From a virus: DNA of 64,000 nucleotides. The translations under genes were made by a program, and so were the position numbers. The notes beneath the pieces were generated by a model, which did no database searches, was not told where the DNA came from, and worked only from the letters and a program-made list of their open reading frames with translations. The first letter of the stretch is position 1. Each line of letters begins with the position of its first letter. Positions 36,773 to 39,017 of the stretch are shown piece by piece. The DNA is taken from the IMG/VR virus record IMGVR_UViG_3300021405_000009, positions 1 through 64,000 of that record; one strand, 5' to 3'.

Positions 36773-37056
36773 TACTCTTCGTCCTCGTCCTTGCGGCCGA
36801 TCCGCCACACATACTCACAACAGCCCTCGGGATCAACCTTGACTTTCCCGTCAGGCAGGCGCGGCTGCTTCGACTTGGCTTTCATATCTTTTTGGTTACA
36901 GGCTCCCGGCTTCGAGAACCACTTACAGTTCTCGCACTCAAACTCGCCGAGATTCTTCGCCGCCTCATAGCCAGTGCCGGGCTCACCGCGAACGGCGGCC
37001 TGGTTGATGCTCACAAGTTTGCTGTGGCCGGAGCCGAGTTCGTCCTTAGCTGGCAT
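36772..37056 (-). CDS. HiPIP-like Cys-rich protein
   Basis: CENCKWF....C....VDPEGCCEYVW matches HiPIP CxxC..C..GWC spacing. Confidence 0.5.
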   Translation of the reverse strand: MPAKDELGSGHSKLVSINQAAVRGEPGTGYEAAKNLGEFECENCKWFSKPGACNQKDMKAKSKQPRLPDGKVKVDPEGCCEYVWRIGRKDEDEE

Positions 37057-37107
37057 AGGTGGGCAAAGTTGCGGGGCGTCCTCGGTCAAGAGAACGCCCC
37101 GCTGGGG

Positions 37108-37743
37108 TTACACGCGATCGATGGAGAACTCGGTCAACTGCACCGCGTTCGGGGAAGTCCCGGCCGAGAAGGTGAAGGTGAGTTCGAAGTTCAAGTCAGC
37201 GAACTTCAGCCCCGAGCCGATCGTGCCGCCAGAGAGCACGGCGTTGATCGTGTAGGCGGGAGTGGTGGTGAAGTTCGTCCACGACGTGGAGCAGAAGCCG
37301 CCCAAGCTGCCAGCGGTCGAGTTGAAGAGCAACTGCCACTCGTACATGAAATCGACGGTCGCCACGTTCGAGCTGGCGATGGTCGCGCAGGTGTGGAGCA
37401 AGGTGCAGCCGGTGCCTACAACGCCCGTCGAGGTCACGCTGCCCGCAGCCCCAATCACGCCCACGGCAACGCCGTTGACTTGGTAAAGGATGGGGATAAT
37501 CGTGGCCGCGCCACCAGTCGTGGTCGCCTTACCGCAGGCGCGGATCTTCAGCGGGTGGACATCAGAGTAGCCGGAAGCGATATCCGGAGTGGGCGAAACC
37601 GTCAGGCCAGCGCCTGCAGGAAGCACAGGAGAGGGAAGGCCGGGATAGCCGGAAGCGGGAACAAGAAACACGTTGGCGGTGGTGCCACCGGCCAACTGGG
37701 CGGGCAGGTTGTAGAAGCCGTAAATGGTGTTGACGTTACTCAT
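37108..37743 (-). CDS. Virion structural protein (divergent member of paralog family A)
   Basis: PLKIRACG, EWQLLFNS, ends TEFSIDRV (compare SEFSITQL, NEFALERL). Confidence 0.5.
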   Translation of the reverse strand: MSNVNTIYGFYNLPAQLAGGTTANVFLVPASGYPGLPSPVLPAGAGLTVSPTPDIASGYSDVHPLKIRACGKATTTGGAATIIPILYQVNGVAVGVIGAAGSVTSTGVVGTGCTLLHTCATIASSNVATVDFMYEWQLLFNSTAGSLGGFCSTSWTNFTTTPAYTINAVLSGGTIGSGLKFADLNFELTFTFSAGTSPNAVQLTEFSIDRV

Positions 37744-37830
37744 GGAAAGTTTCCTTTAGAAAATTGAAGGTGGGGATGGACTGCGGGTGCCGGGAATACG
37801 TTCGCCTAGCGGCGCACTATCAATCCCGTT

Positions 37831-38130
37831 TCATGCGAAAAGCGTCTGGAGGGCCGCCCTGAGTTTGGCGCGGAAAGTGGGTGGAGGCGGAGGCGGCTCA
37901 ACAATCTTAGCGGTGACGCGGTACACTTCGCGGCCTTCGCCGTTGCAATACAAGTCGGTGAAGTAGCGCTCCACTGCAGGGCCTGCCACGGTCTCGGTCG
38001 AGAAGTAGCGCGCGACCATGTACTGGCCGGTGGCCTCGACTGAGAACAACTCCATGTCTTCGCCGTTCCTGGCCTTGGGGGCTGCGAAGTCCGGGTTTGT
38101 GCTCTTGATTCCGACGAGCTGGATGAGCAT
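37831..38130 (-). CDS. Hypothetical protein, first gene of late operon
   Basis: ATG with AAGGA upstream. Confidence 0.55.
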   Translation of the reverse strand: MLIQLVGIKSTNPDFAAPKARNGEDMELFSVEATGQYMVARYFSTETVAGPAVERYFTDLYCNGEGREVYRVTAKIVEPPPPPPTFRAKLRAALQTLFA

Positions 38131-38181
38131 CTTTACTTAAAATCCTTCTGAAGGCCGCGTCTGTACGCTACCGCACAATTT

Positions 38182-38212
38182 CACTTGACACGGCAGAGTA
38201 CAGTCAAAGTTA
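38182..38212 (+). promoter_or_regulatory. CACTTGACA-N8-TACAGT promoter-like element
   Basis: One of three intergenic copies; an A follows 7 nt after the hexamer, at the base of a hairpin. Confidence 0.55.
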
Positions 38213-38312
38213 TCCATGCCGTAGAACCAGCCTGACGGAGTGGATCTGGGCTCCCGCACTCGCTCGGTCATAGAGGTTGGCTCCTCTACAAAAACCCTGG
38301 GGGCGGGAGTCC
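38212..38312 (+). promoter_or_regulatory. Structured leader or sRNA
   Basis: AUCCA/UGGAU hairpin; GGGCUCCCGC/GCGGGAGUCC stem enclosing UAGAGG/CCUCUA; G-U pairs favour the plus strand. Confidence 0.45.
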
Positions 38313-38321
38313 TTAATTTCG

Positions 38322-38471
38322 ATGAAAGAAAAAAGTGAACGCTTAGATGCACTGCGCGAGATGGAGCGGCACGGGGCATCGAAGCTAGCGATCGCGGCCA
38401 TGCGGGCCGAGATGGAACGCGGGCGAAAATCAGGCCGGGCGGTGGTGAAGAAAAAACCGAGGAAACGGTAG
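38322..38471 (+). CDS. Small basic protein
   Basis: MKEKSERLDALREMER...; SD lies within the upstream stem. Confidence 0.45.
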   Translation: MKEKSERLDALREMERHGASKLAIAAMRAEMERGRKSGRAVVKKKPRKR

Positions 38472-38519
38472 GAGCCCCGCGACTATTACGGGAGCTGTTC
38501 TGACTTTCACAGATTTACA

Positions 38520-38614
38520 TCGCGGACAAGGGATGCGGCTGGAATTTGCAGGAGTCGAACCTGCGACGCTTTTTGAGCGTTTCATCAGGATAACCAGCTC
38601 ACTTCGGCCCGCGA
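38520..38614 (-). ncRNA. Y RNA, YrlA-like (tRNA-mimic)
   Basis: Terminal stem UCGCGGGC-C(bulge)-GAAG / CUUGUCCGCGA (Ro60-binding helix; compare GGUCCGA/UUGAC), GCUGG/CCAGC, GUUAUC, ACGCU/AGCGU hairpin, canonical T arm GCAGG-UUCGACU-CCUGC. Confidence 0.75.
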
Positions 38615-38633
38615 ACTTTTTAGGAGGACAGGA

Positions 38634-38882
38634 ATGCCAAACTTGGGAGACAAGGTACGCGATAAGATCACGGGCCACGAGGGTATCGTCATCGCCCGCA
38701 CGGAGTGGCTCTATGGCTGCGTGCGCTATGTCGTTCAGGGCCAGACGCTGCATGAAGGCAAACCCACAGAGCCCCACACTTTCGACGAAGACCAACTCGT
38801 CGTCCTCAAGGCCGATGCTCTCAACGACAGCGAAGAGAAGCCTGCCGGTGGCGATCGCGATTATGTTGCCACGCGGCGCTGA
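38634..38882 (+). CDS. Small SH3-like conserved phage protein
   Basis: LGDKVRDKITGHEGIVIARTEWLYGC..FDE; AGGAGG RBS. Confidence 0.75.
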   Translation: MPNLGDKVRDKITGHEGIVIARTEWLYGCVRYVVQGQTLHEGKPTEPHTFDEDQLVVLKADALNDSEEKPAGGDRDYVATRR

Positions 38883-38986: not shown

Positions 38987-39017
38987 CACTTGACACGGGC
39001 TACTAGAATAAAATCCA
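38987..39017 (+). promoter_or_regulatory. CACTTGACA-N8-TAGAAT promoter-like element
   Basis: Second copy; the A after 7 nt is the first base of AGGAGAGG. Confidence 0.55.

What the first reader, a model, noticed from the sequence alone, without database searches (positions are those of the whole stretch)
38520..38614. Phage-encoded tRNA-mimicking Y RNA with no Ro60 gene in the window
The sequence shows the bulged-C Ro-binding helix (GGGC-C-GA/UUGUCC), the GUUAUC segment also seen in human Y1, and a canonical T arm, which is the YrlA architecture. Bacterial and phage Y RNAs are usually encoded beside their Ro60/Rsr (TROVE) gene, and none is visible here. An orphan copy could hijack or decoy host Ro60/PNPase or RtcB-linked RNA repair, or act as bait for tRNA-targeting defences (inference). 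It lies antisense to its flanking genes.
Basis: partly seen in the sequence, partly recalled or inferred. Interest (0 to 1): 0.8.

Follow-up and report, generated by a model that had tools for sequence, protein, structure and literature searches.

The report
Stray seventh Y RNA of a Ro60 phage
The 95-base element is a real Y RNA, a small RNA that docks onto the ring protein Ro60. It is not an orphan: the same phage encodes its own Ro60 and six more Y RNAs 47 kb away, just outside the window, so this is an oddly placed extra member of a known RNA-protein system.

Summary
Window 38520-38614 (minus strand) has the Ro60-binding helix (GGGC-C-GA / UUGUCC, bulged C), a GGUUAUC box and a canonical T arm. 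A covariance model built only from other Y RNAs finds it at 39.3 bits, E 1.5e-6. That is the only hit in the window.

The "orphan" reading fails. The window is bases 1-64000 of a 98,239-bp phage record. That record encodes a full Ro60 (TROVE + Ro60 vWA) at 85960-87552, followed by six tandem Y RNA genes with the same handle. The element is therefore a seventh, dispersed paralogue, most likely bound by the phage's own Ro60.

It is not YrlA-type. It has a hairpin and a T arm but no D arm, like D. radiodurans Yrn1.

What is unusual is the placement: 47 kb from Ro60, on the opposite strand, at the divergent junction of the two gene arms. In 15 other Ro60 phages and 4 bacterial genomes, nearly all model hits lie within about 2 kb of Ro60 on the same strand.

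This scan had already noted the same stretch and the array (e1-6016596, e1-6016592).

Verdict: a new member of a known kind. Interest is modest.

The parts
38518..38616 (-). Y RNA gene 'Y0' (core 38520-38614), the seventh and dispersed Y RNA of this phage
   Evidence: R1 covariance model 39.3 bits, E 1.5e-6, model positions 1-69 of 69. Rfam RF01053 30.6 bits over its full length. MFE -36.8 kcal/mol, z -3.4.
38604..38614 (-). 5' strand of the Ro60-binding lower helix, UCGCGGGC-C-GA, with bulged C at 38606. It contains the GNCGAA(N0-1)G motif.
   Evidence: Sequence. The motif is defined in Chen et al. 2014 (PMC4201824). The helix covaries across 54 Y RNAs, with 96.7% of cells paired.
38520..38529 (-). 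3' strand of the lower helix, UUGUCCGCGA
   Evidence: Sequence. It pairs with 38604-38614 in the fold and in the R1 alignment.
38589..38602 (-). 5' strand of the upper stem (GUG-A-GCUGG) running into the conserved GGUUAUC box
   Evidence: G, U, U, A and C of this box are invariant in seed alignment A1. The upper stem has compensatory changes in 7 of 8 pairs.
38535..38542 (-). 3' strand of the upper stem, CCAGCCGC
   Evidence: Fold and R1 alignment.
38566..38580 (-). 5-bp hairpin ACGCU-CAAAA-AGCGU, one base upstream of the T arm
   Evidence: Fold. It aligns to the hairpin that precedes the T arm in the Deinococcus Y RNA model.
38548..38564 (-). tRNA-like T arm: 5-bp stem GCAGG/CCUGC with 7-nt loop UUCGACU (G53, U54, U55, C56, R57, A58 and C61 all present)
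   Evidence: Sequence. It matches the T arm of the Rfam tRNA-Sec and Deinococcus Y RNA models. ARAGORN finds no tRNA in the window.
38634..38882 (+). Right-flank gene (82 aa, function unknown). Its ribosome-binding site AGGAGG lies 5-10 nt from the 5' end of the Y RNA, on the other strand.
   Evidence: phrog_16275 E 2e-14. tblastn hits in 14 phage records. Positive codon score.
37831..38130 (-). Nearest well-supported left-flank gene. It is the first gene of the leftward (structural) arm and lies on the same strand as the Y RNA.
   Evidence: Codon log-odds +0.16 and GC3 0.78. The overlapping + ORFs score negative.
38131..38633 (.). About 500 bp between the last confident leftward gene and the first confident rightward gene. 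It holds Y0 and a CACTTGACACGG motif at 38182-38193 that recurs at 38987.
   Evidence: All ORFs inside it have negative coding scores.

Best explanation
This is a functional Y RNA gene on the minus strand. It is the seventh member of the phage's own Y RNA family.

Its 5' and 3' ends pair into the conserved bulged helix, which is the docking site for Ro60. The partner is most likely the Ro60 that the phage itself encodes 47 kb away, not a host protein. The variable head (a small hairpin plus a tRNA-type T arm, with no D arm) would then give this particular Ro60 particle its own effector or substrate specificity. Known precedents are the T-arm-bearing Yrn1 of D. radiodurans, which tethers Ro60 to PNPase, and the Yrl RNAs of Thermus phage phiLo, which bind phage Ro60 and host PNPase.

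Because it lies apart from the Ro60-linked array, on the other strand and at the junction of the two gene arms, it is probably transcribed under separate control.

Shown: the family membership, the strand, the intact motifs, and the presence of phage Ro60 and six paralogues. Inferred: binding to phage Ro60, the effector, and separate timing.
For: 1. An independent covariance model R1 was built from 13 short Y RNAs of this and other Ro60 phages, without this element. It hits window 38518-38616 (-) at 39.3 bits, E 1.5e-6, and nothing else in the window.
2. R1 is specific. In 4 whole bacterial genomes (4.7-8 Mb each) its only hit at E<=0.01 lies next to Ro60 on the same strand. In 42 phage Ro60 loci every hit is on the Ro60 strand.
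3. The family structure is real. Across 54 aligned Y RNAs 93.3% of cells are paired, 14 of 18 pairs show changes on both sides, and the covariation score is 0.78 against 0.08-0.13 when partners are slid. No shuffle out of 500 reached the observed score.
4. Every column that is invariant in the seed alignment A1 is kept in Y0, namely GG, G-UUA-C, the C that pairs with the last G of the upper stem, and UU..C. Both stems are intact and the T loop is canonical.
5. The phage encodes Ro60: TROVE 150 bits and vWA_Ro60 213 bits. It matches D. radiodurans Rsr (2NVO) at E 1.5e-135 and X. laevis Ro60 (1YVP) at E 8e-129.
6. Six tandem Y RNAs with the same GGGCCGAAG...GGUUAUC...CUUGUC handle follow the Ro60 gene.
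7. The Rfam Deinococcus Y RNA model aligns over its full length, including the hairpin and the T arm.
8. The same head type (hairpin plus T arm, no D arm) recurs in Ro60-adjacent Y RNAs of other phages, for example L026 3573-3666 and L055 2451-2554.
9. Literature: the GNCGAA(N0-1)G motif resembles the GGUCCGA contacted by Ro60; Yrn1 and M. smegmatis YrlB have a T arm only (PMC4201824). Phage Ro60 binds its own Yrl RNAs and host PNPase (PMC12135203).
Against: - There are no expression data.
- No sigma-70-type promoter or intrinsic terminator was found for the minus strand. A promoter would have to overlap the start of the + gene at 38634.
- No orthologue of this particular copy was found in any collection, so its head has no covariation support and purifying selection cannot be shown.
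- Scores against curated Rfam models are below the gathering thresholds.
- Folding energy does not pick a strand: -36.8 against -35.4 kcal/mol.
- Its position breaks the usual 'within 4 kb, same strand' pattern (PMC4201824).
Confidence: 0.72

Rival explanations
1. One reading: an orphan Y RNA that works without a phage Ro60. It would capture or decoy the host's Ro60/PNPase, or bait tRNA-targeting defences.
For: The element is far from the phage Ro60 and on the other strand, so it may be expressed when phage Ro60 is absent. A T arm could in principle attract tRNA-binding proteins. Binding to a host Ro60 as well is not excluded.
Against: The premise fails: the phage has its own Ro60 and six more Y RNAs with the same handle. 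The host is unknown, so a host Ro60 cannot even be shown to exist. There is no RtcB in the phage. There is no anticodon arm, D arm or acceptor end for a tRNA-targeting nuclease to recognise.
Confidence: 0.08
2. A decaying relic: a Y RNA copy displaced from the array by rearrangement, no longer expressed or needed.
For: It lies in an atypical place with no recognisable promoter or terminator. No orthologue was found to show conservation.
Against: All invariant positions, both stems and the T loop are intact. It is the third-best R1 hit in the genome and scores above three array members. It shares only the 22-24-nt handle with its paralogues and no flanking sequence, so it is an old copy that has kept exactly the functional parts.
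Confidence: 0.1
3. The functional strand is the + strand. On this reading the structure is a terminator, attenuator or 5'-UTR element between the rightward promoter region and gene 38634-38882, and the Y RNA likeness is secondary. A dual-use element is also possible.
For: A terminator-like hairpin lies on the + strand at 38546-38566, followed by CGCTTTTTGA. The + strand folds almost as well as the minus strand, at -35.4 kcal/mol with z -2.6. A promoter-like CACTTGACACGG motif at 38182 would send + transcripts through the element.
Against: The scan finds 1 terminator-like site against 0.6 expected by chance. The Y RNA model, the GNCGAAG motif and the T loop exist only on the minus strand, with E 1.5e-6. 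The wobble pairs G-U and U-G of the minus-strand stems become A-C and C-A mismatches on the + strand.
Confidence: 0.07

Closest known systems
Deinococcus radiodurans Yrn1 (Rfam RF01053), the Y RNA that tethers Rsr (Ro60) to PNPase
   Same: Both have a terminal bulged helix with G-CCGAAG on the 5' strand and a GGUUA(U)C box. Both heads consist of a small hairpin directly followed by a T arm, with no D arm. The model aligns over its full length.
   Different: The score is only 30.6 bits against a gathering score of 80. The element is shorter (about 97 nt against 126 model positions) and lacks the long single-stranded stretch. It is phage-encoded and lies 47 kb from Ro60 on the other strand.
YrlA / YrlB RNAs of bacteria and mycobacteriophages (Rfam RF02553; Chen et al. 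2014, PMC4201824)
   Same: It shares the GNCGAA(N0-1)G handle and a tRNA-like T arm. Several Y RNAs per Ro60 gene is also usual. M. smegmatis YrlB likewise has only a T arm.
   Different: YrlA has T arm, acceptor-like stem and D arm in permuted order; Y0 has no D arm and gives no RF02553 hit. Two array members do hit RF02553, at 35.4 and 41.2 bits. Reported YrlAs lie within 4 kb of Ro60 on the same strand.
Thermus phage phiLo Ro60 with Yrl1/Yrl2 (PMC12135203)
   Same: A phage encodes both Ro60 and its own Y RNAs. Binding was shown in that system, as was a complex with host PNPase.
   Different: The phiLo RNAs lie directly upstream of the Ro60 gene. The phiLo Ro60 is only a distant relative of this one (E 2e-7). 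Nothing has been tested experimentally here.
Y RNAs of IMG/VR phage record IMGVR_UViG_3300028800_000066
   Same: This is a second Ro60 phage whose Y RNA hits are not beside Ro60. They lie 18 kb away, next to an array of 11 tRNA genes.
   Different: Those copies are on the same strand as Ro60, and that phage shows no Ro60-adjacent copies. Here six copies are adjacent and only one is dispersed, on the opposite strand.

Membership tests
Y RNA (Ro60-binding noncoding RNA) | 5' and 3' ends pair into a long stem carrying the conserved Ro60-binding helix (GGUCCGA-like / GNCGAA(N0-1)G 5' strand, bulged C, UUG-C 3' strand) | tested here: met
   UCGCGGGC-C-GA pairs with UUGUCCGCGA. R1 gives 39.3 bits, E 1.5e-6. 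The helix covaries in 54 relatives.
Y RNA (Ro60-binding noncoding RNA) | A Ro60 (TROVE) protein is encoded in the same genome | tested here: met
   A 530-aa TROVE + vWA_Ro60 gene lies at 85960-87552 of the same record, outside the window.
Y RNA (Ro60-binding noncoding RNA) | Physically bound and stabilised by Ro60 | not testable with these tools
   This needs immunoprecipitation or gel-shift assays. The handle is identical in its invariant positions to the six Ro60-adjacent copies.
Y RNA (Ro60-binding noncoding RNA) | Usual (not defining) placement: within about 4 kb of Ro60 on the same strand | tested here: not met
   It lies 47 kb away on the opposite strand. In 12 of the 13 other Ro60 phage records with hits, and in all 4 bacterial genomes with hits, every hit lies within about 2 kb on the same strand.
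YrlA (Rfam RF02553) | tRNA-like module with both a T arm and a D arm around an acceptor-like stem | tested here: not met
   The T arm is present. There is no D-arm sequence and no RF02553 hit at E<=10 in 38400-38720.
Deinococcus_Y_RNA (Rfam RF01053) | Score at or above the family's gathering threshold (80 bits) | tested here: not met
   The score is 30.6 bits, although the alignment runs the full length at E 1e-3. The element resembles this family but is not a curated member.
tRNA | Cloverleaf with acceptor, D, anticodon and T arms | tested here: not met
   ARAGORN finds no tRNA in the window. There is no Rfam tRNA hit, only a T-arm-level match to tRNA-Sec at 14.4 bits.

The most novel reading that the evidence does not exclude
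The dispersed copy is a separately timed switch. It would be transcribed from the divergent control region between the two gene arms, on the structural-gene strand. From there it would load the phage Ro60 with a different head at a different stage of infection than the six Ro60-linked Y RNAs. Alternatively, it could double as an antisense or roadblock element over the ribosome-binding site of the first rightward gene. Either case would be the first Y RNA whose genomic placement, rather than its sequence, encodes its regulation.
Probability: 0.15. Interest if true: 0.6.

Novelty: new member of a known kind. Interest (0 to 1): 0.3.

Why it matters
Searches for Y RNAs have been restricted to the few kilobases around Ro60 genes (Chen et al. 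2014 reported only hits within 4 kb). This case, and a second phage whose Y RNAs sit beside its tRNA array, show that phage Y RNA genes can lie far from Ro60 and even on the other strand. Y RNA inventories built that way are therefore incomplete.

One Ro60 with seven Y RNAs carrying different heads is also a compact natural system. It could be used to ask how the head of a Y RNA chooses the partner or substrate of Ro60.

The case also illustrates a limit of window-based reading: 'no partner gene in view' did not mean 'no partner gene'.

Tried and rejected
- Rfam at gathering thresholds gave nothing in the window. The whole-record search with RF01053 gave nothing at E<=0.001. Only the short-region E-value search showed the sub-threshold match.
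- ARAGORN found no tRNA in the window.
- blastn of the locus against 50,697 phage records gave no match.
- Syntenic relatives sought through three flanking proteins gave nothing useful. The 82-aa neighbour gave two distant loci, of which only L028 covers the corresponding upstream position, and it holds no Y RNA there (L029 ends at its contig's end). The 211-aa and 163-aa neighbours gave none.
- The metagenome pattern scan for the Y0-specific head returned 7 loci with no R1 hit. By eye they look like ordinary tRNA genes or coding sequence. The head therefore has no comparative support.
- The promoter and terminator scan found no minus-strand signals.
- Folding energy does not discriminate between the strands.
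- The idea that Y0 is a recent duplicate of an array member was rejected. Only the 22-24-nt handle is shared.
- An RNA-repair (RtcB) link was rejected: the phage has no RtcB.
- The 49-aa + ORF at 38322-38471 has no homologue and a negative codon score, so the left-hand context remains ambiguous.
No metazoan Y_RNA (RF00019) hit appeared at E<=10.

Full report
**What is at the coordinates**

Read on the minus strand, window 38616-38518 is 5'-GUUCGCGGGCCGAAGUGAGCUGGUUAUCCUGAUGAAACGCUCAAAAAGCGUCGCAGGUUCGACUCCUGCAAAUUCCAGCCGCAUCCCUUGUCCGCGAUG-3'. The two ends pair into a lower helix, CGCGGGC-[C]-GA with UUGUCCGCG, leaving a bulged C at 38606. An upper stem follows, GUG-A-GCUGG with CCAGC-CGC.

The head consists of a single-stranded UUAUCCUGAUGAA, a 5-bp hairpin, one C, and a T arm. 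The T arm has a 5-bp stem and the loop UUCGACU (MFE -36.8 kcal/mol, z -3.4).

**Is it more than chance?**

Curated libraries alone are not decisive. There is no Rfam hit at gathering thresholds and no tRNA by ARAGORN. A permissive search of 38400-38720 gives a full-length alignment to RF01053 (Deinococcus Y RNA) at 30.6 bits, E 1e-3, below its threshold of 80. It gives no YrlA hit.

I therefore built an independent test. Thirteen short Y RNAs were aligned (A1). Two came from this phage's own Ro60-linked array and eleven from other IMG/VR phage loci: seven from loci fetched through their Ro60 gene (L031, L039, L043, L049, L064) and four from loci fetched through the handle motif (L006, L009, L022). 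A two-helix structure was written on the alignment: 85% of cells paired, covariation 0.53 against 0.10-0.25 for slid partners, and 0 of 500 shuffles as high. It was then turned into covariance model R1. The window element was not in the seed.

R1 finds the element at 39.3 bits, E 1.5e-6 over the whole 98-kb genome on both strands. It is the only hit in the window.

R1 is specific. In four whole bacterial genomes of 4.7-8 Mb its single hit at E<=0.01 lies beside the Ro60 gene on the same strand. In the phage loci fetched through their Ro60 gene, every hit is on the Ro60 strand. On 54 hits aligned to the model, 93.3% of cells pair and 14 of 18 pairs show changes on both sides. The covariation score is 0.78 against 0.08-0.13 for slid partners.

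Y0 keeps every column that is invariant in A1. The strand is set by these motifs and by the G-U wobbles, not by energy: the + strand folds at -35.4 kcal/mol.

**The 'orphan' premise**

The window is bases 1-64000 of a 98,239-bp IMG/VR virus record. A search of the whole record with Pfam TROVE finds one gene, at 85960-87552 on the + strand.

Its 530-aa product carries TROVE (150 bits) and the Ro60 vWA domain (213 bits). It matches phrog_850 'RNA-binding protein' at E 6e-83. It also matches D. radiodurans Rsr (PDB 2NVO) at E 1.5e-135 and X. laevis Ro60 (1YVP) at E 8e-129.

Directly downstream on the same strand lie six Y RNA genes, found at these record coordinates:

- 87816-87889
- 87897-87968
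- 87975-88118
- 88125-88193
- 88210-88350
- 88401-88539

They share the handle GGGCCGAAG-N5-8-GGUUAUC...CUUGUC(C/U). Their closing and upper stems covary from copy to copy, while their heads differ. Two are minimal hairpins, two are YrlA-like (RF02553 at 35.4 and 41.2 bits), and one encloses a whole tRNA-Ile-like cloverleaf.

So 'no Ro60 in the window' is true, but the phage is not Ro60-less. The window element is a seventh paralogue. It shares only the 22-24-nt handle with the array copies and no flanking sequence. It is therefore an old copy that kept precisely the functional parts, not a recent duplicate.

**What kind of Y RNA it is**

The head has a T arm with all the canonical T-loop identities, preceded by a small hairpin. 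It has no D arm and no acceptor-like stem between arms, so it fails the YrlA definition.

It is closest to D. radiodurans Yrn1, whose Rfam model has the same hairpin-then-T-arm order. Chen et al. 2014 note that Yrn1 and M. smegmatis YrlB carry a T arm, and that GNCGAA(N0-1)G resembles the GGUCCGA contacted by Ro60 (PMC4201824). The same head type recurs in Ro60-adjacent Y RNAs of other phages, for example L026 3573-3666 and L055 2451-2554.

**What is unusual: the place**

[quoted passage not shown] I scanned 15 other whole Ro60-phage records with R1, and 13 had hits. In 12 of them every hit lies within about 2 kb of Ro60 on its strand.

The one exception is IMGVR_UViG_3300028800_000066. Its two hits lie 18 kb from its single TROVE gene, on the same strand, beside an array of 11 tRNA genes. 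Y0, at 47 kb and on the opposite strand, is the only opposite-strand case I saw.

**Local context**

A codon log-odds score trained on the long genes of this phage was applied to the local ORFs. It shows that the confident genes to the left are on the minus strand up to 37831-38130. The overlapping + ORF 36892-37767 is a shadow.

The ORFs inside 38137-38471 all score negative. The 49-aa + ORF at 38322-38471 has no homologue. The gene to the right, 38634-38882 (+), is real.

Y0 therefore sits in, or at the edge of, the roughly 500-bp divergent region between the leftward structural arm and the rightward arm. It points leftward, and its 5' end is 18 nt from the start codon of the first rightward gene.

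A CACTTGACACGG motif at 38182, repeated at 38987, looks like a rightward promoter or operator. If it is active, + transcripts run antisense through Y0.

No sigma-70-type promoter or terminator was found for the minus strand. One terminator-like site on the + strand is the complement of the T arm, against 0.6 such sites expected by chance. Who transcribes Y0, and when, is open.

**How it most likely works**

Shown: the family membership, the intact handle, and the phage Ro60 with six paralogues.

Inferred from the established biology of Ro60 and Y RNAs: the handle docks on the phage Ro60, and the head recruits or gates a partner. In D. radiodurans, Yrn1 tethers Rsr to PNPase (PMC4201824). In Thermus phage phiLo, the phage Ro60, its Yrl RNAs and host PNPase form a complex (PMC12135203).

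A bare T arm is also the recognition element of TruB and TrmA; this last point rests on general knowledge and was not tested here. Seven heads on one handle suggest a set of Ro60 particles with different partners. The dispersed copy may be timed differently.

I put 0.9 on 'genuine Y RNA gene', about 0.75 on 'partner is the phage Ro60' and about 0.35 on 'PNPase-type tether'.

**Rivals**

- Decaying relic: argued against by the intact motifs, but not excluded, because there is no orthologue to test.
- + strand terminator or leader element: a weak signal. The Y RNA motifs exist only on the minus strand, although dual use is possible.

**Novelty and score**

Phage Ro60 with Y RNAs is known (PMC4201824; PMC12135203), and 357 GenBank phage records hold a tblastn match to this Ro60; the 25 best-listed records are annotated 'Ro-like RNA binding protein' or 'RNA-binding protein'. 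The T-arm-only head is a known type.

The new point is a dispersed, opposite-strand copy. It is a modest addition, but it shows that Ro60-proximal searches under-count Y RNAs.

The same stretch and the array had already been noted in this scan (e1-6016596, e1-6016592). My result was reached independently and agrees with them. Verdict: a new member of a known kind, interest 0.3.

Noticed in passing
outside the window: record 85960-88539 (L003 3960-6539): A Ro60 gene is followed on the same strand by six tandem Y RNA genes with one shared handle and different heads. Two are minimal, two are YrlA-like, and one encloses a tRNA-Ile(GAU)-like cloverleaf that ARAGORN calls at 88021-88095.
   Followed up: partly
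L082 2524-3046 (IMGVR_UViG_3300028800_000066, about 82.0-82.5 kb): In another Ro60 phage the only two Y RNA hits lie 18 kb from its single TROVE gene. They are on the same strand, directly beside an array of 11 tRNA genes. No hit lies next to its Ro60.
   Followed up: partly
window 38182-38204 and 38987-39008 (+): The motif CACTTGACACGG is repeated, each time followed after 8 nt by a TA...T hexamer (TACAGT, TAGAAT). Both copies lie upstream of rightward genes. This is a promoter-like pair with an unusually short spacer.
   Followed up: partly
window 36892-37767 (+) and 37108-37743 (-): The 291-aa + ORF is probably a shadow. The overlapping 211-aa minus-strand ORF has the coding signature (GC3 0.81, codon log-odds +0.37 against -0.21). 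The leftward gene arm therefore extends to 38130.
   Followed up: partly
A1/A2 alignments; in the window 38589-38595 (-): The box GGUUAUC at the top of the upper stem is almost invariant across phage and bacterial Y RNAs of this group. It also matches GGUUAC in the Deinococcus Y RNA consensus. I found no mention of it in Chen et al. 2014, and its role is unknown.
   Followed up: partly
record 76323-76422 (outside the window): ARAGORN calls a 100-nt tRNA-Ser(GGA)-like gene here. Together with the tRNA-like heads of the Y RNAs, the phage carries several tRNA mimics.
   Followed up: no
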